64,000 nucleotides of DNA from an uncultured bacterium (GCA_964001285.1 CAXFAF010000006.1:8205-72204), one strand, 5' to 3'; counted from the first letter of the stretch, positions 27,626 through 46,797 are shown. Made by a program: numbers and translations. The notes: a model not told the origin generated them from the sequence alone.

Positions 27626-29014
27626 TTAAGTATTATTTTCGTTTAAATATTTATCTACCATTAGATGTAAATGTCTTGTTCTCGATTCTTGATAATTGCC
27701 TAAAGTTTGAGCACCCTTTGGACTAGCTTTAAAGCCCTTTGTTTGTGATAAAAGATTGTTTGTGTCTTGATCATATACAGCCCCTAAAAAACCAGTTCCT
27801 TCACATAAAGTATAACTATCATTTATATCCAAGTATTGAGGTTCCGGTGGTAGGGGATGATCTTCACCAGGAATTTTTGGTCGTAAAAATAAGAGATCAA
27901 ATATTGCATGATCTACTCCATCTGGTCTAAATCTATATACCATCGGTAATTGAAGCCCTGGAAAAAAGAAAGCATTAGGAAAAACAAAATATTCTATTGA
28001 ATCAATAGTTTCTGTAACGCTTAAGTGAGAAAAGTCAGATTTATATTTTTCACTCATTTCTTCTTGAACAATTCTTGCATAAACTTCTCTTGCAGTGCTT
28101 CCTTCGGGAACTTTTATTTCACCCGAATCATCATCGAGTCTTCTACCAAGAAGAATATCTAATATTCCTTGTTGGTCAGGTCGGTTATCAGTCACATGAG
28201 GGCTTGTATAGCCTATAGTATGAACAAAACGGGTGATATGATCACCAAAAATGTCATAATCTGCATTAGCATCACCTGCAGTCATAACGCCTTCAGAATG
28301 GGTTTCTAAAACATGATAAGCTTCTAGAAATGCTTCTGCAGAAGCCTTCCAGTTAGCTGGAAGCCTTTTAACTACATGTGTTTCTATATATCTATCTTCA
28401 AGATTCCAATTCTTAAAATGTTCAGGTAACACACCAAGATAATCATTTAAAGGTTTTGCATTTTGGTCAAAATTTACGAAAACAAAACCACCCCAAATAT
28501 CACATTTTAGCTCTGGCAAACTATATTCCTCTTTATTAACATGAGGAAAATCCCAATCGCACGGAAGAAATTCTAGTTTTCCAGAGAGTGACCATGTCCA
28601 GCCATGAAATGGGCATCTAAGTTCTTTGCATATTCCTGAAGTTCCTGAAGGTTTTAATTGCGTTCCCCTATGTAAACATGAATTATAATATGCCTTTATC
28701 TCATCTTTCTCAGATCTAACAATTATTGCTGAAAGATCACCTACATCATAAACATAATAGTCTCCAATTTCTGGAATATGATCAACATGGCAAGCCCACT
28801 GCCATACTCTTGACCACATATGGTCATTTTCTTTTTTTGCGAATTCTTCAGAGATATATCTTTCAAATGGTATGTCTGCATCGCTTATAAATTCATAAGA
28901 CTCTTCCAAAATAGGTGCTGGAGCCCCTGTGCAATCTCTACTTACCAATTCTTTGGTAGATGGATGATCAGGACATCTTGCTTCACCTGGTTTTAGATTT
29001 TTAAGTTCGCTCAT
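27626..29014 (-). CDS. Rieske [2Fe-2S] non-heme-iron oxygenase, alpha subunit (paralog 1)
   Basis: Rieske CLHRGTQL...CPFHGW and mononuclear-iron motif EAYHVLETH (Hx4H). 462 aa. First gene of a minus-strand operon. Confidence 0.88.
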   Translation of the reverse strand: MSELKNLKPGEARCPDHPSTKELVSRDCTGAPAPILEESYEFISDADIPFERYISEEFAKKENDHMWSRVWQWACHVDHIPEIGDYYVYDVGDLSAIIVRSEKDEIKAYYNSCLHRGTQLKPSGTSGICKELRCPFHGWTWSLSGKLEFLPCDWDFPHVNKEEYSLPELKCDIWGGFVFVNFDQNAKPLNDYLGVLPEHFKNWNLEDRYIETHVVKRLPANWKASAEAFLEAYHVLETHSEGVMTAGDANADYDIFGDHITRFVHTIGYTSPHVTDNRPDQQGILDILLGRRLDDDSGEIKVPEGSTAREVYARIVQEEMSEKYKSDFSHLSVTETIDSIEYFVFPNAFFFPGLQLPMVYRFRPDGVDHAIFDLLFLRPKIPGEDHPLPPEPQYLDINDSYTLCEGTGFLGAVYDQDTNNLLSQTKGFKASPKGAQTLGNYQESRTRHLHLMVDKYLNENNT

Positions 29015-29193
29015 GGCTTAAAACCCCCAAATTTATAATGACGATATAACAATAATCTCATATACGAAATACTAAATTTATAAAAATATCAATTTCTTAA
29101 TAAATTATTGACTTTTAGGGGTATTTTTAAAAAATATAATAATATTCTTCAAATTTTGATGTTTATATGTAGACTAGGTCCTATGTTTAGTGG

Positions 29194-29198
29194 GGAGG
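29194..29198 (+). promoter_or_regulatory. Shine-Dalgarno (GGAGG) for the TonB-dependent receptor
   Basis: GGAGG lies 5-6 nt upstream of the ATG at 29204, and a signal peptide begins at that ATG. Confidence 0.6.
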
Positions 29199-29203
29199 TT
29201 TTT

Positions 29204-31402
29204 ATGAAAAAACTAACTATATTTTTTGTTGCTTGTATTTTAGCTATTACAGGCAGTGTTATGGCTGATGAGGGTGAGAACCTACAAAGTTCAGCTAGCA
29301 ATTCTTCAAGTTCTGCAACTAGTCAATCCAATGCTGGTTTGGAAGAGATAGTAGTTACTGCTCGTAAGAGGGAAGAAAGTCTTTTAGATATTCCTGAATC
29401 AGTAGTAGCAATATCAGGATTAAGTATTGATCGTCAAAATATTAAAGGTCTTGATAAAATTGGGTTAGCCATTCCAAACCTTAATCTCGCTATGCGTACA
29501 GATGGATATCCAAATGCTTCCATTAGGGGTATTGGTGCTTTTGGTTTAACACAAGGTGTAGGTTTTTATATTGATGATGTTCAATTATTTAGTGATGCTT
29601 CATCAAGATTTGGAGACTTAGAAAGAATAGAGGTTATAAAGGGTCCACAAGGAACCTTATATGGAGGTAGTAATATTGGTGGAGCCATTAAGTATGTTAG
29701 TAAACGTCCAGATTCAAACGAAACCTCTGGAAGATTAAAACTTCTTGGTGGTGAGCAAGGCGTAATAGATGTTGAAGCTTCTGTTAATATGCCCATTGGT
29801 GATAATGGTTGGGCAATTAGAGTATTTGGGTTTACTAGAGAAGATGATGGATTTATGTATAATCCTAATTCTGATAATGTTGACAATCAAGACCCTGATG
29901 TAGGCGCTTATGACGAAAGTGGAGGGCGTTTATCAATTGCTGGTCAACTTTCGGATAATCTATCACTCTACGCTTCACTTCGCTACAATGAGTATAACGG
30001 CCCAGTAAATAATTGGGCGAGGGAATTAGGTAGTGCACCTAATTTCACTTATCCAAAGACTTTAGATGCGGGTTTAAACCCAACTCATGAAAGAGAAACT
30101 TTTGGAGCACATTTAGAGTTAGTTTTTGAAAGAGAAGGTTATGATGTTACTTCTGTAACCTCCTATACAGATACTGAAAGCACTCGGATTACAGATGTTG
30201 ATTTAACTCAATTCTGGTTTATGAACACATATAGACCCGAAGAATTTGAAATTATAACTCAGGAGATACGATTTACATCAACAACAGAAAGTAATTTTCA
30301 ATGGATAGCAGGTGTTTATGCTTCAAAATATACAAATAATATGGATTCATATTTACACTTCGGTCCGGGGATTATTCTACCTGATAGTGATTTTATTCTA
30401 CCATTTGAATTACGTGACGAAGAAAATACCCATTTAGCAGCTTTTGCTAATATTTCGTATGAAGAAGGTGATTGGAAGTTAGATTTAGGTTTAAGAATAG
30501 ATAGTTGGGAAGAGGATGAAGATAACCTCGATATAGAAACAAATGGAGCACTTCATGCTGGTGTAATTAATGATACTGAAGTTTTACCTCGTATTTCTGT
30601 GACAAGAAATCTGGAGAATGACTCCATGGCTTATTTAACAATATCCAAGGGCTTTGAGCCAGGAGGATTAAATGGATCTACTCCAATTTTAGGTCCTGAT
30701 GGTTCACCAACTCTTTTAGAATTTCAACCTGAAGAAGCCCTTCAATATGAAATTGGCTGGAAAGGGAGTTTTGCAGAAGGTAGAGGTACAGCATCTGTAG
30801 CCGCCTTCTTTATTGATTATAAGAAAAGAGCTTATCAAGTCTTAACCCCTAATCCAAATGGACCAGGTTTGATAGAGGGCATAACGAATGTAGGTAACTC
30901 TGAACAACATGGTGTTGAGTTTGAATTAGCTTATCAATTTAACGAAAGCCATTCGATAAGTCTTGCTGGAGGTATGATTGATGCTGAGTGGGATAATAAT
31001 ACAGTAGCCAATGATACTGATTTAAGCGGTCTGACGCCAGCGAATGTAATCGAGAATAGTTTTTCAATTAACTATAGTTACGATAAACTTCTTGCTAATG
31101 ATATGAATCTCATTGCAGATATTCAATTAAGTCATCAAGGAGAAGGTAAGAGTATGCCGCCTTGGGATTCTATAAATAATCCAGATTACACCGTAATAAA
31201 CATTCAGGCAGGAATAATAAGGGGTCCTTGGGAGTTTATGTTGAATTTGGATAATGCTACTGATGAAGAGTATTATACAGATTTAGAAAATTTCCCTAAT
31301 TTTGGATTTGGCAGCCCTGATATCGAAACGCATCCTACAATTGTTATTGGTACTTATGGTCATCCAAGAATATTATCTGCTAGTTTGACATATAATTTTT
31401 AA
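29204..31402 (+). CDS. TonB-dependent outer-membrane receptor
   Basis: Signal peptide MKKLTIFFVACILAITGSVMA, plug region EEIVVTARKRE..., a long beta-barrel and a C-terminal aromatic residue (...LTYNF). Start chosen at the ATG at 29204 with GGAGG 6 nt upstream; the ORF-track start at 29108 is rejected. Confidence 0.88.
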   Translation: MKKLTIFFVACILAITGSVMADEGENLQSSASNSSSSATSQSNAGLEEIVVTARKREESLLDIPESVVAISGLSIDRQNIKGLDKIGLAIPNLNLAMRTDGYPNASIRGIGAFGLTQGVGFYIDDVQLFSDASSRFGDLERIEVIKGPQGTLYGGSNIGGAIKYVSKRPDSNETSGRLKLLGGEQGVIDVEASVNMPIGDNGWAIRVFGFTREDDGFMYNPNSDNVDNQDPDVGAYDESGGRLSIAGQLSDNLSLYASLRYNEYNGPVNNWARELGSAPNFTYPKTLDAGLNPTHERETFGAHLELVFEREGYDVTSVTSYTDTESTRITDVDLTQFWFMNTYRPEEFEIITQEIRFTSTTESNFQWIAGVYASKYTNNMDSYLHFGPGIILPDSDFILPFELRDEENTHLAAFANISYEEGDWKLDLGLRIDSWEEDEDNLDIETNGALHAGVINDTEVLPRISVTRNLENDSMAYLTISKGFEPGGLNGSTPILGPDGSPTLLEFQPEEALQYEIGWKGSFAEGRGTASVAAFFIDYKKRAYQVLTPNPNGPGLIEGITNVGNSEQHGVEFELAYQFNESHSISLAGGMIDAEWDNNTVANDTDLSGLTPANVIENSFSINYSYDKLLANDMNLIADIQLSHQGEGKSMPPWDSINNPDYTVINIQAGIIRGPWEFMLNLDNATDEEYYTDLENFPNFGFGSPDIETHPTIVIGTYGHPRILSASLTYNF

Positions 31403-31423
31403 TAGCAAAAAATATTAAATAAA

Positions 31424-31450
31424 AAAGGCTCTTTAAAAGAGCCTTTTTTT
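31424..31450. terminator. Bidirectional rho-independent terminator
   Basis: AAAAAA-GGCTCTT-TAAA-AAGAGCC-TTTTTTT: a perfect 7-bp GC-containing stem flanked by an A-run and a T-run, placed between the convergent TBDR (+) and MBL (-) genes. Confidence 0.75.
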
Positions 31451-32327
31451 ATGAGCTATCCGGGTGTTTGACTTCATAAATAAAGTGATCGTCTTTTCTT
31501 TTTACATATCCTGCAGATGGTGTAGCGAAATGTGTGCCAAAAACCAAAATATTTTCATCTGCATATTCTTCAAGTTTTTTTCTTCTCGTTTTTTTAGCAA
31601 GTTCTTTATCCCAATCAGCACTTGATTCCCAATCCAATCTCTCCATTTGACAGGGATGATGTAAAAAATCACCAGTTATTGCTGCCTTTATACCTTGTGC
31701 CTCAATACAAACGCTTACATGACCAGGGGTATGGCCAATTGTAGGTTCAAGGTGAATTCCTTCGCAAATTTTTTCATCCATATCTACGAACTTGACTAAC
31801 CCGGAGTCAATGATTGGTATTATTGAGTCATTTATAAATTCTGCATACCTATGATCGTTTAATTGTTTTTCTGTATGTTCCCATTCTTTCTTGCCGAAGA
31901 GATAATCAGCTTTTTTAAAAGTTGGTTCCCATTTATCATCTACAAGTACTGTATTCCACCCAACATGATCGGTGTGCATATGCGTACATAAAACAGTATC
32001 TATCTTATCAACAGAGTACCCTGATGTTTCTAAGTCTTCTAAAAATCTTGTTTGTAACATATTCCATTGGGGAATATGTCTTTCCTTATCATTTCCAAGA
32101 CATGTATCAACAATTATGCATTTTTCATTTGTTTCAATTATCAGGGCATGAATGCTTACAATTGTATTTCCTTCACTATCAGAAAAGTAAGGTTGTAGCC
32201 ATGGCATTTTCAGGATTTCTTCAGGTACCGCATCAGGAACAACAAACATTGGCCCAGCTCTTTCACCTTCAATAATTCTTGTTATTTTTATATCGCCAAT
32301 ATTCCAACTACTGATTTTATTATTCAT
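31449..32327 (-). CDS. MBL-fold metallo-hydrolase (lactonase-like)
   Basis: CTHMHTDHVGW (HxHxDH), GHTPGH, TGD and GTHF supply the full metallo-beta-lactamase ligand set. 292 aa. Confidence 0.8.
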   Translation of the reverse strand: MNNKISSWNIGDIKITRIIEGERAGPMFVVPDAVPEEILKMPWLQPYFSDSEGNTIVSIHALIIETNEKCIIVDTCLGNDKERHIPQWNMLQTRFLEDLETSGYSVDKIDTVLCTHMHTDHVGWNTVLVDDKWEPTFKKADYLFGKKEWEHTEKQLNDHRYAEFINDSIIPIIDSGLVKFVDMDEKICEGIHLEPTIGHTPGHVSVCIEAQGIKAAITGDFLHHPCQMERLDWESSADWDKELAKKTRRKKLEEYADENILVFGTHFATPSAGYVKRKDDHFIYEVKHPDSS

Positions 32328-32329
32328 TA

Positions 32330-32629: not shown

Positions 32630-32773
32630 TTAGACCTCCTAATTTTTTAATTTTATTATCCCAAAATCATTATTTATTAATACATTTAAAACTTACAACA
32701 CATTTGTTTATTTTTTTTATTTTGTACTATTACTTTTTTTAGATAATATCTAATCATTAATTGGGGGAAATTA

Positions 32774-34144
32774 GTGCCACAACGCTTTGATCATATAGAT
32801 TTTTCTGACCAAATAACGGCGGATCCTAAGCATAATGCTAAGTTATCTAGTGATAGATATACTTGTCCTGATTTTATGCAATTAGAATGGGAAAAGATTT
32901 GGACTCAGTGTTGGTTATTTGCAGGTTTGGAATCTGATATTCAAGATGTGGGTGAATTTTTTGTTTATGATATAGGAAGAGAGTCAATAATAGTTACTCG
33001 AAATGAGAACAACAAAATTTCTGCATTTTATAATAGTTGCCAACATAGAGGTAACAAGATTTTAACTCAAGAATCTGGTTGGGTTAAACAAGTATCTTGT
33101 CCCTACCATGGTTGGACCTATGGTTTAGATGGAGAGCTTAAGAAAGTTCCCGATGCAGAATTATTCGAAGATAATGTTTTATGCGAAGAAAATTCCTTGA
33201 AATCTGTTTGTGTAGAGACTTGGGCGGGTATGATTTTTATAAATATGAGTGAGAATCCAGCCTCTCTTAGAATTTTCTTAGGAAAAATCATGGATCAACT
33301 TGGTCCATATCATTTTGAGAATATGCAACTAGTAAAACATCAGAGTGTAACATTGGATACGAATTGGAAAACAGTAAGGGATAATTTTTTAGAACAATAT
33401 CATGTTGATTTCATTCACCCCCAGCATGCTAGTTTCGTTGATTGTTGTGATGCACAAAATTATCTATGGCCTTTCGGTCATACTCACACATGTGTTGAAA
33501 GTCCCGTAATGAATCCTCGATATCCCATGCCAGAAGAGCCACCTGAATACATGATTCAATATCTCAAAGGTTTGGAGCTTAATCCAGATGATTATCATGG
33601 TAAGGTTCCAGAAATTAGAAAGGTTATTCAAAAACAAAAAAGAGTAATTGGCAAAAAACTTGGTTTTGATTATTCGGAACTTTCCGATGAGCAGGTTTCC
33701 GATGTTTTTCAATATGATATTTTTCCAAATTTATTTATGACAATTCATGCTGAGAGGGTTTGGCTTTATGGCCCTAGACCCCACCTTTCGGATCCAAATA
33801 AATGCACTTTTACAAAATTTAGCTTAATGCTGCCGGAAGATAAAATTCGAGATGAAAAAAAGGGTTTAGAGCTCCTTCCTGGTTCTTATGATTATGAGTA
33901 TTCTGAAACAAGAGTAGAGCATGAAGTTTTTACAAGACAAGATGTAATAGAAGGACGAAATTCTATGACTGTTACTATAGACCAAGACATTCATTATCTT
34001 AATGATATGCAGGCAGGTATGCATTCCCGTGGTTTTGACAAAGCTATTTTAAGTGATGATGAAGAAAGATTACAGCATTTCCATAACTGGGTTGATAATT
34101 GGTTAAGTGACAATTCATCTTGGTCTAAAATAAGTCAATCATAA
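32774..34144 (+). CDS. Rieske non-heme-iron oxygenase alpha subunit (paralog 2)
   Basis: GTG start with GGGGGAAA upstream. Rieske CQHRGNKI...CPYHGW and Fe site EQYHVDFIHPQH. 456 aa. Confidence 0.85.
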   Translation: MPQRFDHIDFSDQITADPKHNAKLSSDRYTCPDFMQLEWEKIWTQCWLFAGLESDIQDVGEFFVYDIGRESIIVTRNENNKISAFYNSCQHRGNKILTQESGWVKQVSCPYHGWTYGLDGELKKVPDAELFEDNVLCEENSLKSVCVETWAGMIFINMSENPASLRIFLGKIMDQLGPYHFENMQLVKHQSVTLDTNWKTVRDNFLEQYHVDFIHPQHASFVDCCDAQNYLWPFGHTHTCVESPVMNPRYPMPEEPPEYMIQYLKGLELNPDDYHGKVPEIRKVIQKQKRVIGKKLGFDYSELSDEQVSDVFQYDIFPNLFMTIHAERVWLYGPRPHLSDPNKCTFTKFSLMLPEDKIRDEKKGLELLPGSYDYEYSETRVEHEVFTRQDVIEGRNSMTVTIDQDIHYLNDMQAGMHSRGFDKAILSDDEERLQHFHNWVDNWLSDNSSWSKISQS

Positions 34145-34161: not shown

Positions 34162-35559
34162 ATGAGTGATACGAAATTACCAAAAAAAACTTTGTTCTTC
34201 TATGGTCTTTCAGAGATGCCATTATCGATTGCTTCTCTTCCTTTGTTGGCTTTTATACCAAATTATTATGTATCAGATTTAGGGCTTGATTTTGCTGTTG
34301 TCGCATTAGTTATGCTTTTGGCTAGATCATTTGATGCCGTTACTGATCCCTTGATTGGGTATTTAAGTGATAGGACTGATACGCGATGGGGAAGAAGACG
34401 GATATGGATGTTTTTATCAATCCCTATTTTAATGATAGCGGCTTATAAAATATTTTTTCCTCAAAATCTTTGGGAATTTGTTCCTTTTAGTCTCGATTTT
34501 CTTTCTTTGAATTTAGGAGCAGGGGGTCACTATCTTTTGTTTTGGTTTTTAGTGCTTTGGTTTGGATGGAGTATGCTTTTTATTCCTTATTATTCTTGGG
34601 CTGCAGAATTATCTTCAGATTATAATGAAAGATCGACTATTGTTGGCTGGCGCATGTTTATTGGGACATTTGGTAATGCCATATCCAAATTTTTACCGGC
34701 TATTGCTTTGTTATTTTTTGCTTATGGGGGAGCCGAGGAGACTATTATAATTATTGGAGCTGTTTTTCTTTTGGTTATTCCAATTTGTATAAGTTTATCA
34801 ATTTTCAATGTCCCTGAGAGAATGGATTATCAGACCAAGCAGGGGTCTATTAAAGAAGGTCTAAAGGCTATGTGGAAGAACAAAGCCTTTAGGCAGTTAA
34901 TTTTTGCATACTTTTTTAATTATATAGGGGTAACTCTTTCAACTTTAACAGTTATGTTTTTTATTAGGGGTGTTACAGGAGAAGAAGAGCAAGGTATTCT
35001 TTATTTCATTTTTTACTATGTTGCTAATCTTATTGGAATTCCCTTTTGGCTTTGGCTTTCAAAAAAAATAGGAAAACATAATGCCTGGAAGATAGGCTTA
35101 GGTGTCTTCACAGTAATGCAGCCATGTTATTTTTTCCTGGGTCAGGGAGATTATTATTGGATGTTTCCAATTACTACAATTGCTGGTTTAGCAGGATCAA
35201 CATTTCATCTTATACCGCATGCCATGAAGGCAGATGTTATAGATTATGATACTTATCTTACTGGTGAAGATAGAGCAGCACAGTTTTTTGCCGCATGGTC
35301 ATTTATAACGAAAATGGCTATTGCTATTGCCCCATTTTTTGCCTTCACATATTTAGATTTAATAGGCTTTAACTCTACGCCCGGAGCAATAAATAGTCCG
35401 GAGCAAATACTGGGGTTAAAAATATTATTTTGTTTTGCCCTTCCGCTATTTCTAATAATCGCTATTTTGTGTGTTCGTGATTATCCTATTACACAAGCAA
35501 AACAAGAAGAGATTCGAAAAGAGATAGAAACTCAAAAAAAACAATTACAAGGAGTATAA
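34162..35559 (+). CDS. GPH-family (glycoside-pentoside-hexuronide:cation symporter, MelB-like) MFS transporter
   Basis: The N-terminal signature FYGLSEMPLSIASLP...DAVTDPLIGYLSDRTDTRWGRRR is diagnostic of GPH/MelB-type symporters. 12 TM. Confidence 0.85.
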   Translation: MSDTKLPKKTLFFYGLSEMPLSIASLPLLAFIPNYYVSDLGLDFAVVALVMLLARSFDAVTDPLIGYLSDRTDTRWGRRRIWMFLSIPILMIAAYKIFFPQNLWEFVPFSLDFLSLNLGAGGHYLLFWFLVLWFGWSMLFIPYYSWAAELSSDYNERSTIVGWRMFIGTFGNAISKFLPAIALLFFAYGGAEETIIIIGAVFLLVIPICISLSIFNVPERMDYQTKQGSIKEGLKAMWKNKAFRQLIFAYFFNYIGVTLSTLTVMFFIRGVTGEEEQGILYFIFYYVANLIGIPFWLWLSKKIGKHNAWKIGLGVFTVMQPCYFFLGQGDYYWMFPITTIAGLAGSTFHLIPHAMKADVIDYDTYLTGEDRAAQFFAAWSFITKMAIAIAPFFAFTYLDLIGFNSTPGAINSPEQILGLKILFCFALPLFLIIAILCVRDYPITQAKQEEIRKEIETQKKQLQGV

Positions 35560-35560
35560 A

Positions 35561-36082
35561 ATGAGCGACGCTTTAGAAAGAGTTATTGCAAAATCTGAAA
35601 TTTATGATCTTTCATGCAAATATATGAGAGGTCTAGATAGATTAGATATAGAATTGTTGAAATCTGTTTTTCATGATGGTGCTTGGTGCGATTATGGTTT
35701 TACAAAAAGTGATGCTCCAACATTTGCTCAATTCTGTATGGATGCACTCAAAGAACATCATGCTAATCATCATATGATTGGTAATGTTTTGATAGAATTC
35801 AGCGACAATAAAGATGAAGCTTTTGGTGAAGTCTATTTTCAGGCTTATCACAAAGTTGATGAAGACGGTCAAATGAATGATGTTTTTATTTCTGGACGAT
35901 ATCTTGATCGTTATGAAAAAAGAGATGGTATTTGGAAGATGGTATACAGATCTGAAATTGTAGATTGGTCACGAACTGAACCAACCCATGAACCATATTT
36001 TGATTCAGCTCCAGATTGTTTTCGAGGTGGTCGTCAAGATGATAGAGTTTATGATACTAAAGATAGATATAATCCAAATTAA
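35561..36082 (+). CDS. SnoaL_4 / NTF2-like domain protein (paralog A)
   Basis: 173 aa, with IYDLSCKYMRGLDRLDIELLKSVFHDGA (NTF2-like SnoaL_4 pattern). Paralogous to 44901..45434; C-terminal regions align (SGRYLDRYEKRDGIWK vs SGRYIDRFERRNGEWK). Confidence 0.75.
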   Translation: MSDALERVIAKSEIYDLSCKYMRGLDRLDIELLKSVFHDGAWCDYGFTKSDAPTFAQFCMDALKEHHANHHMIGNVLIEFSDNKDEAFGEVYFQAYHKVDEDGQMNDVFISGRYLDRYEKRDGIWKMVYRSEIVDWSRTEPTHEPYFDSAPDCFRGGRQDDRVYDTKDRYNPN

Positions 36083-37423: not shown

Positions 37424-37434
37424 CTTAATTCCTT

Positions 37435-38415: not shown

Positions 38416-38420
38416 TTTTT

Positions 38421-40159: not shown

Positions 40160-40960
40160 TTAAAAAGTAGTATTTCCAATTCCGCCATCTATAACAAGAC
40201 TTTGTCCTATAACATAAGAAGCTTGTTGACTACAAAACATTGCAACAAAAGAACCTAAATCATCAGAAGATCCAAATTTTTTTGCTGGAATCTTCCAATT
40301 TTCAACAAAATTAGCAATTTCTTCATCATAAGATGTTCCATTTTCTTCTGCTAATTTATTATATCTTTCCTTAATGCTCGCAGTATGATGCATTCCGGGC
40401 AATATATTGTTTATCACAACATTATGTTTTGCAACTTTTTTTGAGACTGCTACTGAATAATTTACTAATGCCGCCCTTGGAGGGCCTGATAAAATTCTTA
40501 CTTCAGTTGGTGTTTTAGCTGCACCAGTACCGATATTAACTATACGTCCCCATTTTCTTTCTACCATACCAGGAATTATTGCTTTCATAAATTCTACAGG
40601 ACTAAGAAGTGCAACATCTAAAGTCTGCTTCCATTCATCAGTACTAACCTTTTCGTAGCTGTAAGTAAAAGGTGGAGGGGTGCATGTTCCAACTAAAATA
40701 TCAGGATTAGGACAAGCAGATATAATTTTTTCTCTTCCTTCATCTGTACTGTGATCAGCAACTATAGGCTCTACTTTTACATTAGTAGCTTTTTTAATTT
40801 CTTCACAGGTTTGTAATAATCTATCTTCTCCACGAGCAGAAATAAATAGATCAACACCTTCTTTAGCGAGAGCAAAAGCACTGCCTTTTCCCATTCCTGC
40901 GCTACCGCCATTGATAATTGCTTTTCTACCTTTAATACCTAAATCCATAATTTCCCCCAT
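40160..40960 (-). CDS. Short-chain dehydrogenase/reductase family protein
   Basis: Gly-rich coenzyme loop NGGSAGMGKGSA and Rossmann topology. First gene of the minus-strand operon 40960 to 36083. The catalytic tetrad spacing is atypical. Confidence 0.75.
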   Translation of the reverse strand: MGEIMDLGIKGRKAIINGGSAGMGKGSAFALAKEGVDLFISARGEDRLLQTCEEIKKATNVKVEPIVADHSTDEGREKIISACPNPDILVGTCTPPPFTYSYEKVSTDEWKQTLDVALLSPVEFMKAIIPGMVERKWGRIVNIGTGAAKTPTEVRILSGPPRAALVNYSVAVSKKVAKHNVVINNILPGMHHTASIKERYNKLAEENGTSYDEEIANFVENWKIPAKKFGSSDDLGSFVAMFCSQQASYVIGQSLVIDGGIGNTTF

Positions 40961-40969
40961 ATATTAGTA

Positions 40970-41077: not shown

Positions 41078-42712
41078 ATGCAAAAACAATACGATGTTAT
41101 AATACTTGGCGCAGGTGCAAGCGGTATGGCTGCCGCTTTGGCAGTTCATGAAAATGGTTCATCGGTAGGGCTTTTTGAGAAACAGAATCTTGTTGGAGGT
41201 ACAACAGGAGTTTCTGGAGGAATTATTTGGGCCCCTATGAATAGTTATATGAAAGAAAAGGGTATAGCCGATGATAGACAAAAGGCTATAGACTACTTCA
41301 TGTCTTTATCTAACAATGATATAGACCCAAATCTACTTGAATCTTTTATAGATAACTGTTCAACAGCAATAGATTTTATAGAAGAAAAAACCGACGCAAG
41401 TTTTTATATATTAGATGGTTATCCTGATTATTATCTTGATAGACCTGGTGCTTTAGAAGGCGGAGGAAGAGCCTTAGATAATAATCTATTTGATTTTAGT
41501 AAACTTGGAAATTGGGCTGAGAAAGTTAGAGGTAACGGAAAACCAATTCCTATGACTCTTGGGGAAACACCTCTAGGTGGAGGAACAGGTATAGTAGAGG
41601 ATTCTATCATGGGAGAAAGAATTTCAAATGACTCACGAGGAATGGGTCAAGCATTAGTTGGGGCTCTTCTCAAAGGTTGTCTCGACAGAGGCATTGAACC
41701 CCAGCTTGGGATAAATACAAAAAAATTAATTAAAGAAGGAAATAGAATCATTGGTATTGAGATTGATAATAATGGTGAGGCTTTTGAAATCTACGCAAAT
41801 AGAGGTGTCATTATTGCTACTGGAGGCTTCGAATGGAACGAGAATTTAGTAAATAATTTCTTAAGAGGTCCCCTAAATGCTCCTGCGTCACCTCCAGGTA
41901 ATGATGGTGATGGATTAAAATTAACTCAAGAAGTAGGCGCTTCTTTAGGCAATATGACAAGCGCCTGGTGGTCGCCTGTTCTATCAATACCAGGTGATCA
42001 ATGGCCAGAAGGGGGACAAAGGTCAGCTCCAATTTTAATTGAAAGAACTTTACCTCATACAATTATGGTGAATCGATCAGGTAATAGATTTTGTAATGAA
42101 GCAACTAATTATTCTGCAATGGCCGGTGCTTTTCATTTTTTTGACCCCAATGAATATGGGTATCCAAATTTACCAGCATGGTTGATTTTTGATTCAAATT
42201 ATAGAGAAAAATATCCTTTTTCTAATATTATGCCAGGATCTAATGATCCCGAATGGTTTATTAGTTCTGAAAATATAAAGGAATTATCTGAGAAACTTGA
42301 AATAGATTCCAAATCTTTGAAAAATACAATCAAAGTTTTTAACAGTTATGTTGATAACGGTGAAGATCTTGAGTTTGGAAGAGGTAAAAGTGATTACGAT
42401 TCTTTTTATGGAGATAGAACCCAATCAGGTGTCTACACGACCTTAGGAAAAATAGATAAACCGCCCTTTTATGCGGTTAAATTAGATATTGGGGCTTTGG
42501 GAACTAATGGTGGAGCAAGAACTGATAAATTTGGTCGAGTAATTTCTGCCTCAGGAGAAATTATTGACGGTTTGTACACTGTGGGGAATGCTATGGCAGG
42601 TAGTACGGGTTCGGTTTATGCGGGAGCAGGTGGCACCTTGGGTCCAGCATTGACTTATGGTTATCTTGCTGGTTGTCATGCTGCAGGAAATAATTTTGCT
42701 GAAAAGGAGTAA
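41078..42712 (+). CDS. FAD-dependent oxidoreductase, 3-ketosteroid-delta1-dehydrogenase (KstD)-like / fumarate-reductase flavoprotein family
   Basis: N-terminal FAD motif DVIILGAGASGMAAAL, and C-terminal ...GLYTVGNAMAGSTGSVYAGAGGTLGPALTYGYLAG typical of KstD-like enzymes. 544 aa. Confidence 0.82.
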   Translation: MQKQYDVIILGAGASGMAAALAVHENGSSVGLFEKQNLVGGTTGVSGGIIWAPMNSYMKEKGIADDRQKAIDYFMSLSNNDIDPNLLESFIDNCSTAIDFIEEKTDASFYILDGYPDYYLDRPGALEGGGRALDNNLFDFSKLGNWAEKVRGNGKPIPMTLGETPLGGGTGIVEDSIMGERISNDSRGMGQALVGALLKGCLDRGIEPQLGINTKKLIKEGNRIIGIEIDNNGEAFEIYANRGVIIATGGFEWNENLVNNFLRGPLNAPASPPGNDGDGLKLTQEVGASLGNMTSAWWSPVLSIPGDQWPEGGQRSAPILIERTLPHTIMVNRSGNRFCNEATNYSAMAGAFHFFDPNEYGYPNLPAWLIFDSNYREKYPFSNIMPGSNDPEWFISSENIKELSEKLEIDSKSLKNTIKVFNSYVDNGEDLEFGRGKSDYDSFYGDRTQSGVYTTLGKIDKPPFYAVKLDIGALGTNGGARTDKFGRVISASGEIIDGLYTVGNAMAGSTGSVYAGAGGTLGPALTYGYLAGCHAAGNNFAEKE

Positions 42713-42714
42713 TT

Positions 42715-43623
42715 ATGGAAAAAGTTTTGGTTTATGGTGCAAGTGGCGATCAAGGAGTTCCTCTTGTTAATGCGTTAATTAAAAAGGGCTATAAAATTAG
42801 AGCTGCATCAAGATATCCAGAAAAATACAAAAGTGAAATTCAGGGAGATGTAGAGAGTGTAAAGGCTGATCTATTTGATGTTAATACACTTAAAGAAGCT
42901 TGTAGAGATGTTGATTGTATAGCTATGAATTTACCTTTTGTTTTTGATAGAGCGATTGCGAAACAATGGGGAGAAAATATAAATAATGCTGGAAAAGAAA
43001 TGGGTGTTAAGAAAATAGTTTTTAATACAAGTTGTTATGTTGCCCCTAATGATAATGGATTAGAAGCCCATGATGGAAGAAGAGAAATAGAGAAATCTAT
43101 GGAAGAAAGTGGTATGGATTTTGCTGTAATTAGATCGGTGGTTTTTATGGATAATCTATCAAGATTTTGGGCGAAACCTTCGATAGTTAATAGTAATATT
43201 TTTGCTTATCCTTGCAGCGAAACCCTTAAAATTTCTTGGATTTGTCTTGAAGATGTCGCAGCCTTTATGGTCGCAGCCTTATCAAAGAAAGATGTTAAAG
43301 CTGATAAAATTACTGTTGGCGGACCTGAAATATTATTGGGTTCTGAAGTTGCTGAGAAATTTACGAAAGCACTTGGTAGAGAAATAAATTTTCAGAGTTT
43401 AGAACCAAATAGTTTTGCAAGACAAATGAGCAAGTTAGTCACTGGGTCTGAAGAATATGAAAAACCATCCATCTATGGTGGGATGGCAGCTTTTTATAGA
43501 TGGTATAATGAACAAGACCCTTCACCCTTAGCAATTGAAATGGATGAGTTGTATGATAAATTTTCTATAACTCCAACTTATTTTGAGGACTGGATTAAAA
43601 AGCATGATTGGGATAATATCTAA
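42715..43623 (+). CDS. NmrA-like NAD(P)-binding protein (atypical SDR)
   Basis: N-terminal Rossmann VLVYGASGDQGVPLVNALIKKGYKIRAASR. 302 aa, with a 3-nt gap to the upstream gene. Confidence 0.78.
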   Translation: MEKVLVYGASGDQGVPLVNALIKKGYKIRAASRYPEKYKSEIQGDVESVKADLFDVNTLKEACRDVDCIAMNLPFVFDRAIAKQWGENINNAGKEMGVKKIVFNTSCYVAPNDNGLEAHDGRREIEKSMEESGMDFAVIRSVVFMDNLSRFWAKPSIVNSNIFAYPCSETLKISWICLEDVAAFMVAALSKKDVKADKITVGGPEILLGSEVAEKFTKALGREINFQSLEPNSFARQMSKLVTGSEEYEKPSIYGGMAAFYRWYNEQDPSPLAIEMDELYDKFSITPTYFEDWIKKHDWDNI

Positions 43624-43646
43624 TAAGAGGTTTTTAAAATTATGTA

Positions 43647-44891: not shown

Positions 44892-44900
44892 CTAATTTTC

Positions 44901-45434
44901 CTATCTTTGGTATGCGGGATCTTGACGACTTCTACTTGCAGAAGGTCCCGGTGCTTCTAGTTGGCCTTTTTCATTAGCAGGTTCAAATCTGATCCAATCA
45001 TGAACACCCTGTCGTTTAGCTATTTTCCATTCACCATTTCTTCTTTCGAAGCGATCAATATATCTTCCACTAACGAAAACATCCTCATCAATGCTTGTGT
45101 CATGCTCAGCTAAAAAACCCATATCAGATTCTTTACCTTTGGCGATTCTATGATATGCGGTCCAATAAGCTTCAGACCATGCAATATCACCATCTACTTC
45201 AATAAGAAGATTTCCAACAAGATGTTGGGTAAATTCCATTTCAGCTAATATGTCGAAGGCAAAGTTACAGAAATCTGATGATGGACCCTCATATTCTCCA
45301 TGATGATGAATTGAGTCTTCATGGAATACGGATTCTAAAAGTTCCCGATCCATTCTGTCTATTGCTCTGCAGTATCTATATACCACATCTGCTATTTCAA
45401 TCTTATCTGCAGCTATTTCCAATTTTTTATTCAT
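44901..45434 (-). CDS. SnoaL_4 / NTF2-like domain protein (paralog B); positioned like an oxygenase beta subunit
   Basis: 177 aa, with IADVVYRYCRAIDRMDRELLESVFHEDS. Begins 16 nt downstream of Rieske alpha paralog 4 on the same strand. Confidence 0.75.
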   Translation of the reverse strand: MNKKLEIAADKIEIADVVYRYCRAIDRMDRELLESVFHEDSIHHHGEYEGPSSDFCNFAFDILAEMEFTQHLVGNLLIEVDGDIAWSEAYWTAYHRIAKGKESDMGFLAEHDTSIDEDVFVSGRYIDRFERRNGEWKIAKRQGVHDWIRFEPANEKGQLEAPGPSASRSRQDPAYQR

Positions 45435-45450
45435 TATATACCTTCAAAAC

Positions 45451-46797
45451 TTATTCATTTTCTTCGTTAAAAAGGTATCGATCAATATTTTCATGAAAAA
45501 ATCTTATTCTATTTTCTTGAGCCGGCATATAATCGCCTATGTAACCTCTTGAGCTCAAACCTTTTTGTTGACTGGTCCATATTGCAACATCTTCAGAAAT
45601 TCCATCTCCTACATCTACTTCAGAGTGATGCCCCTTTAGATGAGGAATTTTTGTATTTATAGCTGTTTTCTTTTTCAGCATATGTGAATAATATTCATCA
45701 ACTCCTTTTGGAAATAAAGTTAGATACCAATAGTCAAAATAACATTTTGTTGGATCAGTAGGGTGGGGTGTTCCTCTAAGCCATTGCATTCCATCTGGTT
45801 TTACACTGAATGACATATTTGGAAAAATTGTATAATGGTGATGATCTGTTAATTGGGTATCTGTAAACTTACTAAAGTCATAACCTTTTTCTTTATCAAG
45901 TTTCCTTTTTTGCTTTTGCAAATCGTTTCTTATTTCAAGAAGCCTACCTTTATAATCATTTGCATCCATATCCCAATACTCAATTGCCGGAGAAATAGCC
46001 TCTAAAACTTTTTTTTCATCATCATAAACACTTTTACTAGGAATAAATCCAGGCATAAGCATTCTTGCATGCATACTTTCATACATATCGAATTGACAAG
46101 AGTAATATTTTTCATCTGAGAAATATTTTAAGGCAGGATGAACATAAGGAGTATGATATGATTCATTGAAATTATCCTGTACACATTTCCAGTTCCAATC
46201 ACCTTCAACAGTAACCCAATGTGTTCTTATCATTTCCGATATGGGATAGTTTTCTAGTTGATCCATTACTGGATGTAAATATTCTTTTAAAGTTTTTGCG
46301 TTAGGGTCTAGATTAAAAAAAATAAATCCTTCCCAAATCTCTGATTTAATTTCAATTAAATTTCTTTTACCGCAAGGAGAGCCTTGAGGAAAATCCTCTT
46401 CATCAGGAACCCATTCAAGGTTTCCGTCCAGGCCAAATTTCCAGGCGTGATAAGCGCATGAAAAACTATCTAAGTTGCCTTCATCAACCTGAACTAATTT
46501 ATTTCCTCTATGTTGGCATACATTATAGAAGCATCTAATTTTAGAATCTTCACCTTTTGCACATAAAATTGACTCACGACCAAAATCATATGTAAAGAAG
46601 TCACCAGGATTTTCGAGTTGCTGTTCTAAACCAGCAACTTGCCAAACTTTTGTAAAAAGTTTTTCCCACTCTAAATCCATAAATTCTTTCGATGTATACC
46701 TTTCTCCGAGAATAGGTTTATTGCCTAACTTTGGTTCAGGTGCTTTGACTGTATCACCACCAAAGAAAGAATCAGATTTTGATAAAATTTTATCCAT
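45451..46797 (-). CDS. Rieske non-heme-iron oxygenase alpha subunit (paralog 4)
   Basis: Rieske CQHRGNKL...CAYHAW (variant second box) and Fe site DNFNESYHTPYVH. 448 aa. Confidence 0.86.
   Translation of the reverse strand: MDKILSKSDSFFGGDTVKAPEPKLGNKPILGERYTSKEFMDLEWEKLFTKVWQVAGLEQQLENPGDFFTYDFGRESILCAKGEDSKIRCFYNVCQHRGNKLVQVDEGNLDSFSCAYHAWKFGLDGNLEWVPDEEDFPQGSPCGKRNLIEIKSEIWEGFIFFNLDPNAKTLKEYLHPVMDQLENYPISEMIRTHWVTVEGDWNWKCVQDNFNESYHTPYVHPALKYFSDEKYYSCQFDMYESMHARMLMPGFIPSKSVYDDEKKVLEAISPAIEYWDMDANDYKGRLLEIRNDLQKQKRKLDKEKGYDFSKFTDTQLTDHHHYTIFPNMSFSVKPDGMQWLRGTPHPTDPTKCYFDYWYLTLFPKGVDEYYSHMLKKKTAINTKIPHLKGHHSEVDVGDGISEDVAIWTSQQKGLSSRGYIGDYMPAQENRIRFFHENIDRYLFNEENE

What the first reader, a model, noticed from the sequence alone, without database searches (positions are those of the whole stretch)
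27626..46797. Four paralogous alpha-only Rieske oxygenases with no ferredoxin, reductase or canonical beta subunit nearby
The ORFs at 27626-29014, 32774-34144, 38781-40118 and 45451-46797 each carry a CxH...CxxH Rieske centre plus the D/E-x-x-YH-x4-H mononuclear iron site, and are 445-462 aa. This architecture (about 450 aa with an N-terminal extension and no adjacent electron-transfer partner) resembles the alpha3-type oxygenases: KshA (steroid 9-alpha-hydroxylase), phthalate dioxygenase, and the quaternary-amine demethylases GbcA, CntA and Stc2. These act as hydroxylases or demethylases rather than classical dioxygenases. Paralog 4 has a variant second Rieske box (CAYHAW instead of CPYHGW). 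Four copies within 20 kb suggest substrate-range diversification. Their electron donor must be encoded elsewhere.
Basis: partly seen in the sequence, partly recalled or inferred. Interest (0 to 1): 0.7.

Follow-up and report, generated by a model that had tools for sequence, protein, structure and literature searches.

The report
Four partner-less Rieske oxygenase genes
A marine PS1/OCS116-type alphaproteobacterium carries four intact, anciently diverged Rieske oxygenase catalytic subunits in one 22-kb catabolic island, with no electron-transfer partner or classical small subunit nearby. This is real but fairly ordinary for marine bacteria; the one fresh point is their recurrent pairing with a dehydratase-like NTF2 protein.

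Summary
All four ORFs sit at the stated coordinates, carry Rieske plus Ring_hydroxyl_A domains, and keep every metal ligand. No ferredoxin, reductase or PF00866 beta subunit lies in the 64-kb window or about 9 kb beyond either end.

- They share CntA's bridging glutamate and motif spacing.
- They form their own 100%-supported, uncharacterised clade outside group V. They lack the group-V Cys-x-x-Cys pair and an adjacent reductase.
- They are ancient paralogs (26-40% identity), each with orthologs in other bacterial classes. They are not local duplicates.
- In three distant relatives a Rieske-type ferredoxin sits inside such clusters, which hints at a three-component system.

Such genes flank this clade's alpha genes in 33 of 84 loci. 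They keep a LinA/BaiE-type Tyr-Asp-His set, resemble LinA/BaiE more than beta subunits, and also occur without Rieske genes. They are probably enzymes.

Alpha-only RHD expansions in marine bacteria are already published, so interest is moderate.

The parts
27626..29014 (-). R1, Rieske oxygenase alpha subunit (462 aa)
   Evidence: PF00355 + PF00848; ligands C113/H115/C134/H137, E231, H234/H239, D417; own subclade with orthologs outside the PS1 clade
32774..34144 (+). R2, Rieske oxygenase alpha subunit (456 aa), first gene of the R2-MFS_2-SnoaL_4 operon
   Evidence: PF00355 + PF00848; ligands; subclade with 100% bootstrap support
38781..40118 (-). R3, Rieske oxygenase alpha subunit (445 aa), first gene of the R3-ABM-Amidohydro_2-Amidohydro_1 operon
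45451..46797 (-). R4, Rieske oxygenase alpha subunit (448 aa), CAYHAW box 2, followed by a SnoaL_4 gene
   Evidence: Pfam; ligands C94/H96/C114/H117, E212, H215/H220, D403; CAYHAW conserved in orthologs
44901..45434 (-). Sno_b, SnoaL_4 NTF2-fold protein (177 aa), 17 bp downstream of R4; LinA/BaiE-like putative eliminase or isomerase
35561..36082 (+). Sno_a, SnoaL_4 paralog (173 aa, 37% identical to Sno_b), last gene of the R2-MFS operon; directly downstream of the R3 ortholog in some PS1 relatives
   Evidence: (L022-L024)
34162..35559 (+). MFS_2 / GPH-family transporter
   Evidence: PF13347; TIGR00792; homologs near the alpha genes in 21 of 84 loci
29108..31402 (+). TonB-dependent receptor
   Evidence: Plug + beta-barrel; TBDR near the alpha genes in 27 of 84 loci
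38421..38771 (-). ABM-domain protein (116 aa) downstream of R3
   Evidence: PF03992
32330..32629 (-). ABM-domain protein (99 aa), divergent from R2
   Evidence: PF03992
37435..38415 (-). Amidohydro_2 enzyme of the ACMSD/LigW/gamma-resorcylate decarboxylase family
   Evidence: PF04909; PDB ACMSD 2e-36, LigW and resorcylate decarboxylases about 1e-22
36083..37423 (-). Amidohydro_1 metal-dependent hydrolase
   Evidence: PF01979; NCBIfam hit below cutoff
40160..40960 (-). SDR dehydrogenase (SDR_b), upstream of R3 on the same strand; conserved beside R3 orthologs
   Evidence: gene maps
41078..42712 (+). KstD/AcmB-like FAD-dependent cyclic-ketone desaturase
   Evidence: PF00890; NCBIfam ChcC1 420 bits and KstD 412 bits, both below cutoff; PDB 7p18 3-oxosteroid 1-dehydrogenase 7e-94
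42715..43623 (+). NmrA-like NAD(P)-binding protein
   Evidence: PF05368
43647..44891 (+). Cytochrome P450, also without an adjacent redox partner
   Evidence: PF00067; best PDB hits CYP125 ancestor, CYP150A6, EryF, Vdh
26834..27607 (-). SDR dehydrogenase (SDR_a) downstream of R1
   Evidence: generic SDR, ChcB1 207 bits; no cis-diol dehydrogenase family among the 25 best of 224 matches
31449..32327 (-). MBL-fold lactonase-like hydrolase
   Evidence: PF00753; YtnP/AidB lactonase models below cutoff
26105..26812 (-). Dienelactone-hydrolase-family protein
   Evidence: PF01738

Best explanation
The four genes encode functional catalytic (alpha) subunits of Rieske non-heme-iron oxygenases. They belong to a large, uncharacterised clade within the NDO/CntA-type (PF00848) class.

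They most likely work as beta-less alpha3 homotrimers. An electron enters the Rieske [2Fe-2S] cluster, crosses the subunit interface through a bridging glutamate (E231, E207, E209 and E212 in R1 to R4), and reaches a 2-His-1-Asp iron site that activates O2.

Reducing power must come from a ferredoxin plus reductase encoded outside this 64-kb stretch and shared among the four oxygenases. Whether the island's P450 draws on the same donors is untested. The few relatives that keep a donor gene in the cluster point to a Rieske-type ferredoxin, meaning a three-component system rather than a CntB/GbcB-type single reductase.

The four are ancient paralogs assembled into one roughly 22-kb catabolic island of a PS1/OCS116-clade marine alphaproteobacterium. 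The island also holds a TonB-dependent receptor, a GPH-type transporter, two SDRs, a KstD-like desaturase, a P450, two ABM proteins, decarboxylase/hydrolase-type enzymes and two NTF2-fold SnoaL_4 proteins.

The SnoaL_4 proteins are best read as LinA/BaiE-like elimination or isomerisation enzymes acting before or after the hydroxylation step, not as structural beta subunits. The substrates are probably alicyclic or aromatic natural products, but their class is not resolved.

Shown: domains, ligands, clade placement, gene contexts and fold similarities. Inferred: quaternary structure, donor identity, role of the NTF2 proteins, and substrates.
For: - Domains and ligands are intact in all four.
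- All clade members carry E-x-Y-H-x4-H with the same spacing as YeaW/CntA, where that Glu is the proven bridging residue. HcaE has Asp with one extra residue.
- No HcaF-, BenB- or DxnA2-like beta, and no YeaX-, BenC- or GbcB-like reductase, appears in 84 loci of +-10 kb. The reference alpha3beta3 enzymes and group-V enzymes do have these genes adjacent.
- A Rieske ferredoxin (PF00355, 109-130 aa) sits inside multi-alpha clusters in L039, L056 and L071.
- The four lie in a separate clade with 100% bootstrap support, and R1, R2 and R3 each have a well-supported subclade containing non-PS1 orthologs.
- Multi-alpha clusters with TBDR, MFS_2 and SDR genes recur in Gammaproteobacteria.
- Precedents: several oxygenases sharing one ferredoxin and reductase in S. 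yanoikuyae B1 (abstract of PMC1847435), and alpha-only RHD expansions in SAR202 (PMC6946804).
Against: - The structural margin between alpha3-type and alpha3beta3-type neighbours is small: CntA 33.4 against NagG 31.2 and TphA2 31.1. The Rieske-domain sequence matches HcaE and BphA as well as it matches CntA.
- An NTF2-fold gene is adjacent to a clade alpha gene in 33 of 84 loci, sometimes with 4-bp start/stop overlap as in L032 and L038. A non-canonical small subunit cannot be excluded without a complex model or biochemistry.
- The ferredoxin clue rests on only 3 of 84 loci.
- The donor in this genome was not found, because only about 84 kb could be inspected.
- No member of the clade has a known substrate.
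Confidence: 0.6

Rival explanations
1. The oxygenases are alpha3beta3 enzymes whose small subunit is a divergent NTF2-fold SnoaL_4 protein (Sno_b for R4, Sno_a for R2 or R3) instead of a PF00866 beta subunit. R1 would borrow one of them or work alone.
For: - The fold superfamily is the same as that of beta subunits. There are weak C-terminal hits to the HcaF and AndAd beta models, to 3eby, and to the TphA beta.
- A SnoaL_4 gene lies within 300 bp of a clade alpha gene in 33 of 84 loci, across Alpha-, Gamma- and Deltaproteobacteria and Myxococcota, sometimes with overlapping stop and start codons.
- In alpha3beta3 enzymes the Rieske ferredoxin docks at the alpha/beta boundary (title and abstract of PMC9361823), and Rieske ferredoxins occur in three clade clusters.
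Against: - 51 of 84 loci have no adjacent SnoaL_4 gene, although their alpha subunits are 55-60% identical to those that do.
- Gene order and orientation are inconsistent: upstream, downstream, and often divergent.
- The Tyr-Asp-His set of LinA/BaiE-type enzymes is conserved, whereas two of the three real betas checked (BenB, DxnA2) lack the His and all three have Glu in place of the Tyr; HcaF keeps the Asp and His.
- Homologs live in clusters without any Rieske gene.
- The ferredoxin-containing cluster L039 has no SnoaL_4 gene.
Confidence: 0.13
2. They are group-V-type quaternary-ammonium or N-/O-demethylating monooxygenases (like GbcA, CntA or Stc2), each served by an FNR-type reductase encoded elsewhere.
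For: - GbcA is the best-scoring NCBIfam model for all four, at 107-153 bits.
- They share the bridging Glu, the same motif length, and an aromatic residue (Phe) at the CntA Y203 position.
- JGI labels some relatives 'carnitine monooxygenase subunit'.
Against: - NCBIfam scores are far below the 670-bit cutoff and cover only the N-terminal half.
- The four form a separate clade from YeaW, Stc2 and TM1040 with 100% bootstrap support.
- The Cys-x-x-Cys pair next to the iron site, found in CntA and Stc2, is absent; the four have S/A/Q and L/V/T at those positions.
- No FNR-type reductase appears in any of 84 loci, whereas YeaW-YeaX and the TM1040 alpha-reductase pair are adjacent.
- The neighbours are dehydrogenases, a KstD-like enzyme, a P450 and decarboxylase-type enzymes, not amine or one-carbon metabolism genes.
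Confidence: 0.1
3. They are classical cis-dihydroxylating aromatic-ring dioxygenases for hydrocarbon-type pollutants, whose beta, ferredoxin and reductase genes simply lie elsewhere in the genome.
For: - Database names read 'aromatic ring-hydroxylating dioxygenase subunit alpha' or 'phenylpropionate dioxygenase-like'.
- The Rieske domain matches HcaE and BphA at 1e-27 to 1e-30.
- An SDR gene follows R1.
Against: - They use a bridging Glu rather than Asp.
- They lie outside the BenA/HcaE/DxnA1 clade.
- No beta gene appears in 84 loci.
- For SDR_a the 25 best of 224 NCBIfam matches are generic SDR models and include no cis-dihydrodiol dehydrogenase family.
- No extradiol or intradiol ring-cleavage dioxygenase is in the island.
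- The host is a streamlined, low-GC open-ocean bacterium seen in Tara metagenomes.
Confidence: 0.07

Closest known systems
Carnitine monooxygenase CntA / E. coli YeaW (group Va Rieske oxygenase, alpha3)
   Same: - Same E-x-Y-H-x4-H motif with a bridging Glu, and same spacing after NWK...DN[FY].
- Similar C-terminal QxGxxSRG...FH helix, and no long C-terminal extension.
- No beta subunit.
   Different: - Only 21-30% identical.
- Separate clade with 100% bootstrap support.
- No Cys206/Cys209 pair.
- About 70-90 residues longer in the catalytic domain.
- No adjacent YeaX/CntB-type reductase.
- The gene context is unrelated to quaternary amines.
Stachydrine demethylase Stc2, GbcA and 3n0q (TM1040) (group Vb)
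   Same: - Top Foldseek hits, at E about 1e-24 to 5e-25.
- GbcA is the best NCBIfam model.
- Alpha-only architecture with a bridging Glu.
   Different: - Scores are far below the family cutoff.
- Position 203 is Phe here, against Asn in group Vb.
- No Cys pair.
- The TM1040 gene has its reductase immediately downstream; these do not.
Naphthalene/biphenyl/phenylpropionate-type alpha3beta3 dioxygenases (NDO, BphA, HcaE)
   Same: - Same Pfam domain pair, PF00355 + PF00848.
- Comparable Rieske-domain similarity.
- A Rieske-type ferredoxin, as in HcaC or BphF, occurs in three related clusters.
   Different: - Those enzymes have a bridging Asp and one extra residue in the motif.
- They always have a PF00866 beta gene directly downstream, which is absent here and in 84 related loci.
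- They fall in a different clade.
Expanded alpha-only COG4638 ring-hydroxylating dioxygenase paralogs of marine SAR202 (Saw et al. 2020, PMC6946804)
   Same: Many alpha paralogs with few or no beta genes occur in abundant marine heterotrophs. They are proposed to oxidise aromatic or resistant dissolved organic matter.
   Different: The phylum differs (Chloroflexota against Alphaproteobacteria). Most SAR202 copies are annotated as phthalate-, phenoxybenzoate- or carbazole-type, whereas these are NDO/CntA-type. Here there are four copies in a compact island of a streamlined genome.
LinA dehydrochlorinase, BaiE and Hsh2 7-alpha-hydroxysteroid dehydratases, scytalone dehydratase (NTF2-fold eliminases); comparison for the two SnoaL_4 genes
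   Same: - The Asp-His dyad aligns with LinA D25/H73, with a conserved Tyr five residues before the Asp.
- BaiE and Hsh2 are NTF2-like steroid dehydratases (PMC12175502).
   Different: Only 17-19% identity to these enzymes. The long subtype has a conserved C-terminal tail (RDxxDPxY). The substrates and reaction are unknown.
KshA 3-ketosteroid 9-alpha-hydroxylase and phthalate dioxygenase
   Same: Alpha-only Rieske oxygenases. The island also holds KstD-like, SDR, NTF2 and CYP125-like genes, which recalls steroid-nucleus catabolism.
   Different: - Different catalytic-domain family.
- phmmer against KshA gives E 4.5e-4.

Membership tests
Rieske non-heme iron oxygenase, alpha subunit (PF00355 + PF00848) | Rieske [2Fe-2S] ligands C-x-H ... 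C-x-x-H | tested here: met
   Present in all four and invariant in alignments A1 and A2.
Rieske non-heme iron oxygenase, alpha subunit (PF00355 + PF00848) | 2-His-1-carboxylate mononuclear iron site | tested here: met
   H-x4-H plus an Asp that aligns with YeaW D325, corresponding to CntA D323.
Rieske non-heme iron oxygenase, alpha subunit (PF00355 + PF00848) | Bridging carboxylate three residues before the first His | tested here: met
   Glu in all four and in every clade member scanned.
Rieske non-heme iron oxygenase, alpha subunit (PF00355 + PF00848) | O2-dependent oxygenase activity with an NAD(P)H-linked donor chain | not testable with these tools
   Needs biochemistry.
Group V quaternary-ammonium Rieske oxygenases (CntA, GbcA, Stc2) | Falls inside the group V clade | tested here: not met
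   NJ tree: R1 to R4 and their homologs form their own clade with 100% support, separate from YeaW, Stc2 and TM1040. Only three group-V references were used.
Group V quaternary-ammonium Rieske oxygenases (CntA, GbcA, Stc2) | Bridging glutamate instead of aspartate | tested here: met
Group V quaternary-ammonium Rieske oxygenases (CntA, GbcA, Stc2) | Cys-x-x-Cys pair flanking the first iron His (found in some group V members) | tested here: not met
   S/A/Q and L/V/T occupy those positions. The feature is described in PMC10952381.
Group V quaternary-ammonium Rieske oxygenases (CntA, GbcA, Stc2) | Two-component system with an adjacent FNR-type reductase | tested here: not met
   None in the window or in 84 loci. 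Present beside YeaW and the TM1040 gene.
Group V quaternary-ammonium Rieske oxygenases (CntA, GbcA, Stc2) | NCBIfam GbcA equivalog score of at least 670 bits | tested here: not met
   107-153 bits, covering the N-terminal half only.
Classical alpha3beta3 ring-hydroxylating dioxygenases | PF00866 beta subunit gene adjacent to the alpha gene | tested here: not met
   Absent in the window and in 84 loci, tested with HcaF, BenB and DxnA2 as queries.
Classical alpha3beta3 ring-hydroxylating dioxygenases | Bridging aspartate (NDO D205 type) | tested here: not met
   Glu, with a motif one residue shorter than in HcaE.
Classical alpha3beta3 ring-hydroxylating dioxygenases | Hexameric alpha3beta3 quaternary structure | not testable with these tools
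   No multimer prediction or biochemistry was available.
KshA / phthalate-family (class IA) oxygenases | KshA/VanA-type C-terminal catalytic domain and close fold match | tested here: not met
   [not shown]
LinA/BaiE-type NTF2-fold eliminases (for the two SnoaL_4 genes) | Catalytic Asp-His dyad (LinA D25/H73), with a Tyr as in BaiE | tested here: met
   D26 and H71 are kept in 31 of 31 alpha-adjacent copies and Y21 in 29 of 31. The profile alignment to LinA places D26 on D25 and H71 on H73. The BaiE Tyr30/Asp35/His83 numbering is from memory.
LinA/BaiE-type NTF2-fold eliminases (for the two SnoaL_4 genes) | Closest fold neighbours are these enzymes | tested here: met
   [not shown]
LinA/BaiE-type NTF2-fold eliminases (for the two SnoaL_4 genes) | Elimination (dehydratase or dehydrohalogenase) activity | not testable with these tools
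   Needs an assay.
RHO beta subunit (PF00866) (for the two SnoaL_4 genes) | Pfam or NCBIfam beta-subunit model above threshold | tested here: not met
   [not shown]

The most novel reading that the evidence does not exclude
The uncharacterised Rieske clade and the LinA/BaiE-like SnoaL_4 protein form a conserved two-gene 'hydroxylate then eliminate' module. The net effect would be desaturation, aromatisation or ring activation of alicyclic or steroid/terpenoid-like compounds. The module would run on a distal, shared Rieske-ferredoxin chain. It is widespread in abundant marine heterotrophs (PS1/OCS116, Halieaceae, other Pseudomonadales) and would be a previously unrecognised route for oxidising alicyclic dissolved organic matter.
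Probability: 0.2. Interest if true: 0.6.

Novelty: new member of a known kind. Interest (0 to 1): 0.38.

Why it matters

Identifying the substrates and the electron donor would assign a function to a large block of genes now annotated only as 'aromatic ring-hydroxylating dioxygenase subunit alpha'. It would also bear on which dissolved organic compounds these bacteria remove.

The recurrent NTF2-eliminase pairing gives a concrete, testable handle. The general phenomenon of orphan alpha-only Rieske paralogs in marine bacteria is already documented, so the finding refines existing knowledge rather than changing it.

Tried and rejected
1. CndA lead. The best full-length plasmid relative of R2 to R4 (32-35% identity) is on pDC03 of R. 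wittichii DC-6, inside a composite transposon. I suspected it was the chloroacetanilide N-dealkylase CndA. No source names it so (it is 'hypothetical protein'), no named homolog turned up, and the original paper is not held. The claim is dropped.

2. Plant-type ferredoxin motif scan. Scanning the 84 loci for C-x4-C-x2-C...C produced 18 ORFs. The seven motif-scan ORFs (105-160 aa) submitted to Pfam had no Pfam domain; only the three HcaC-like Rieske ferredoxins were real.

4. Looking for the donor just outside the window. About 9 kb on each side holds housekeeping genes, plus one Fer4_20/Pyr_redox_2 protein of the GltD type and a small LEH/SnoaL protein. No recognised Rieske-oxygenase partner is there.

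5. Recent local duplication. Rejected on 26-40% identity and separate orthologous subclades.

6. Mobile-element origin. The window has no tRNA. The only integrase-family gene (7585-8889) is 16 kb from the island and sits among housekeeping genes. The GC rise in the island is slight, 0.35-0.37 against 0.30-0.33.

7. One look-up of encoding contigs only returned the same population again.

Full report
**Observation**

- R1: 27626-29014, minus strand, 462 aa.
- R2: 32774-34144, plus strand, 456 aa.
- R3: 38781-40118, minus strand, 445 aa.
- R4: 45451-46797, minus strand, 448 aa.

Each matches Pfam Rieske (PF00355) and Ring_hydroxyl_A (PF00848) well above the curated cutoffs. The Rieske Cys/His ligands, the E-x-Y-H-x4-H iron motif and a C-terminal Asp are invariant among the four. 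They are also invariant in 46 homologs of R3. In an alignment with E. coli YeaW (the CntA ortholog) and HcaE, that Asp falls on YeaW D325, which corresponds to CntA D323.

R4's CAYHAW box is real. It is conserved in R4 orthologs, and the non-ligand positions of box 2 vary freely in this clade (CKYHSW, CRYHSW, CPYHSW and others). It is not a sign of decay or of special chemistry.

**Absence of partners**

Pfam scans of every island ORF found no ferredoxin, reductase or PF00866 beta subunit. Neither did inspection or scans of the flanking ORFs. The only iron-sulfur proteins are housekeeping SdhB and two c-type cytochrome-like proteins. Intergenic gaps in the island are at most 145 bp.

Contigs of the same population extend about 9 kb past each end of the window. 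They hold housekeeping genes on the left. On the right they hold YidC, RnpA, a gamma-glutamyltranspeptidase, an AMP-ligase, a small LEH/SnoaL protein and a GltD-like Fer4_20/Pyr_redox_2 protein. None is a recognised Rieske-oxygenase donor.

The one qualification is the two SnoaL_4 genes discussed below.

**Organism and setting**

The flanks are alphaproteobacterial housekeeping operons: sdhAB, mdh-sucCD-lpd, atpHAGDC, and obg-proBA-nadD-rsfS-rlmH. GC is 30-37%.

R3 is 86-95% identical to genes in MAGs and SAGs labelled PS1 clade, OCS116 cluster or Rhodobiaceae. The identical island occurs on many Tara and ENA marine metagenome contigs.

The catabolic island spans roughly 25.4 to 47.8 kb and has no transcription regulator. 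Its genes are:
- a GloB-like MBL hydrolase and a dienelactone hydrolase
- SDR_a, then R1
- a TonB-dependent receptor
- an MBL lactonase-like hydrolase and ABM_a
- R2, a GPH-type MFS_2 transporter, then Sno_a
- Amidohydro_1, an Amidohydro_2 enzyme (ACMSD/LigW family), ABM_b, then R3
- SDR_b
- a KstD/AcmB-like flavoprotein, an NmrA-like protein and a P450 (closest to CYP125, CYP150 and EryF)
- Sno_b, then R4

**Where the four proteins belong**

- Sequence profiles. The best NCBIfam model for all four is GbcA, but at 107-153 bits against a cutoff of 670, and only over the N-terminal half. HcaE and BenA/AntA follow. In PDB sequence searches the Rieske domain matches HcaE, BphA and CntA about equally.
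- Iron motif. The motif has the same length as in YeaW/CntA and carries Glu at the bridging position. In CntA, E205 is the experimentally supported inter-subunit electron bridge (PMC7948474). HcaE has Asp and one more residue.
- Group-V features that are missing. The Cys-x-x-Cys pair of CntA and Stc2 (PMC10952381) is absent.
- Phylogeny. The NJ tree used 427 columns and 200 bootstraps. R1 to R4, their homologs from Gamma- and Deltaproteobacteria and sphingomonads, and one unnamed plasmid protein form a clade with 100% support. That clade is separate from both the alpha3beta3 references (BenA, HcaE, DxnA1) and the group-V references (YeaW, Stc2, TM1040).
- Paralog age. Inside that clade, R1, R2 and R3 each sit in a strongly supported subclade with orthologs from other classes. 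R4 is sister to the R3 group (98% support). With 26-40% pairwise identity, the four are ancient paralogs brought together. They are not products of local duplication.
- Naming. No database source gives any member a specific functional name.

**Comparative context (84 loci)**

I fetched 80 genome loci around R3-family genes and added three metagenome loci and the window. I then searched all ORFs with the window's proteins and with reference partners from E. coli and plasmids: HcaF, HcaC, HcaD, YeaX, BenB, BenC, DxnA2 and the TM1040 reductase. A few loci are redundant. Results:
- 32 of 84 loci carry 2 to 4 alpha genes of this clade.
- No locus has a canonical beta subunit or an FNR-type reductase.
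- Only three loci have a ferredoxin. In each it is a 109-130 aa Rieske-type ferredoxin (Pfam-confirmed) embedded among the alpha genes. The arrangements are L039 R3-R1-Fd-R1, L056 R1-Fd-R2 and L071 ABM-SDR-Fd-R3.
- TBDR, MFS_2, SDR, P450 and ABM genes recur nearby.

By contrast, every reference alpha3beta3 enzyme I fetched has its beta gene directly downstream. Both group-V genes for which annotation was available have their reductase adjacent.

This supports beta-less oxygenases fed by a distal donor. It also suggests, weakly, a Rieske ferredoxin plus separate reductase rather than a CntB/GbcB-type single reductase. Sharing one ferredoxin and reductase among several oxygenases has precedent in S. 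yanoikuyae B1 (abstract of PMC1847435).

**The NTF2-like neighbours**

Sno_b (177 aa) starts 17 bp after R4. Sno_a (173 aa, 37% identical to Sno_b) closes the R2-MFS operon. In PS1 relatives L022 to L024, Sno_a follows the R3 ortholog directly instead.

SnoaL_4-like genes lie within 300 bp of a clade alpha gene in 33 of 84 loci, in varied order and orientation. Since beta subunits share the NTF2 fold, I tested whether these are disguised beta subunits. The evidence is against it:
- Pfam assigns only SnoaL_4. Beta models score about 20 bits.
- In a 52-sequence family alignment, Y21, D26 and H71 are nearly invariant.
- In 31 non-redundant alpha-adjacent copies, D26 and H71 are kept in 31 of 31 and Y21 in 29 of 31. 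All three real betas have Glu in place of the Tyr, and BenB and DxnA2 also lack the His; HcaF keeps the Asp and His.
- A profile search of the PDB aligns D26 and H71 with the LinA dyad D25/H73. The best hits are Rv3472, LinA, a scytalone-dehydratase-like protein and BaiE.
- Of four distant homologs looked up, only one neighbours a Rieske gene. The other three sit with ene-reductase, P450, KstD-like, EthD or ChsH2/Ltp2-type genes.

BaiE and Hsh2 are NTF2-like hydroxysteroid dehydratases (PMC12175502).

I therefore read the SnoaL_4 proteins as enzymes (eliminase, dehydratase or isomerase) functionally coupled to the oxygenases. I give the 'non-canonical beta' reading about 13%.

**Mechanism proposed**

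Steps shown:
- Intact cofactor sites.
- CntA-like bridging Glu.
- No local beta or donor genes.
- Conserved co-location with uptake proteins, dehydrogenases and NTF2 proteins.

Steps inferred:
- Alpha3 homotrimers.
- Electrons flowing from NAD(P)H through a reductase and a (probably Rieske-type) ferredoxin to the Rieske cluster, then through Glu to the Fe(II) site. The donors would be encoded elsewhere and shared by all four oxygenases.
- Products processed by SDRs, the KstD-like desaturase, the NTF2 and ABM proteins, and decarboxylase/hydrolase enzymes.

The enzyme set points to alicyclic or steroid/terpenoid-like substrates, and perhaps hydroxy-aromatic acids. The relevant members are the AcmB/KstD-like flavoprotein, the CYP125-like P450, the SDRs, the BaiE-like NTF2 proteins and the ACMSD/LigW-like decarboxylase. 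All family-specific scores are below the curated cutoffs, so the substrate class stays open.

**Novelty and score**

Alpha-only COG4638 expansions with few beta genes are already described for marine SAR202, where they are interpreted as tools for oxidising resistant or aromatic DOM (PMC6946804). The present case is a new, uncharacterised clade member set in a different abundant lineage. I classify it as a new member of a known kind.

The recurrent Rieske-alpha/LinA-like NTF2 pairing did not turn up in my literature searches. That search was narrow, and the pairing may be noted elsewhere.

Interest is moderate at 0.38. It does not surprise a specialist unless the hydroxylate-then-eliminate module is confirmed.

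Noticed in passing
window 36083-38771 compared with L023 1698-4466 and L022-L024: The ABM-Amidohydro_2-Amidohydro_1 block follows R3 in the window, but follows R4-Sno_b in the PS1 relative L023. In L022 to L024, Sno_a directly follows the R3 ortholog instead of closing the R2-MFS operon. The island is a mosaic whose modules are reshuffled between close relatives.
   Followed up: partly
window 43647-44891: The cytochrome P450 (closest PDB hits CYP125 ancestor, CYP150A6, EryF and the vitamin-D hydroxylase) also has no ferredoxin or reductase nearby. It faces the same donor problem as the four Rieske enzymes.
   Followed up: partly
window 25379-47764: The roughly 22-kb catabolic island has no transcriptional regulator gene. 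No tRNA or integrase lies at its borders. GC is only slightly higher than in the flanks (0.35-0.37 against 0.30-0.33).
   Followed up: partly
window 44901-45434 and 35561-36082 (C-terminal about 25 residues): The long subtype of the SnoaL_4 proteins has a conserved C-terminal tail beyond the NTF2 core (consensus G-x-R-D-R-x-D-P-x-Y; D172 invariant, Y175 in at least 90%). The short (about 136-140 aa) Halieaceae subtype lacks it. The tail could reach a neighbouring subunit or a partner protein.
   Followed up: no
L105 1-12543 (Logan SRR32020623 contig): A 43%-identical Sno_b homolog sits in a cluster with KstD-like FAD_binding_2, SDR, MBL, AKR, EthD, 3beta-HSD-like, GST and P450 genes, plus a ChsH2/Ltp2-type pair. 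This is a steroid-side-chain-degradation-like set with no Rieske gene.
   Followed up: no
window 5302-7581: sucD is followed directly by lpdA. No sucA or sucB lies between them, which differs from the usual alphaproteobacterial mdh-sucCDAB-lpd order as I recall it.
   Followed up: no
window 7585-8889: A 434-aa tyrosine recombinase (Phage_integrase domain) with a long N-terminal region lies between lpdA and a transaldolase, among housekeeping genes and 16 kb from the island. The same arrangement is seen in a metagenome contig (L107).
   Followed up: no
window 50775-53026: An overlapping gene pair encodes a 341-aa protein with two CxxCH haem-binding motifs (weak Cytochrom_C hit) and a 413-aa right-handed beta-helix / NosD-like protein. 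Function is unknown.
   Followed up: no
window 29108-31402: The TonB-dependent receptor ORF begins at a TTG and gives 764 aa. Gene callers on identical metagenome contigs give 747 or 732 aa, so the true start is probably further downstream.
   Followed up: no
L097 1382-10455 (R. wittichii DC-6 plasmid pDC03): The nearest plasmid-borne relative of R2 to R4 (32-35% identity) lies between two 1623-bp transposase genes, next to a 755-aa and a 350-aa hypothetical protein. This looks like a composite transposon carrying a member of this clade in a herbicide-degrading sphingomonad.
   Followed up: partly
L106 1-1742 (about 7-9 kb beyond the right end of the window): A 593-aa Fer4_20/Pyr_redox_2 (GltD-like) iron-sulfur flavoprotein and a 126-aa LEH/SnoaL-family protein sit next to an AMP-dependent ligase. 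This is not a recognised Rieske-oxygenase donor, but it is the only redox flavoprotein near the island.
   Followed up: no
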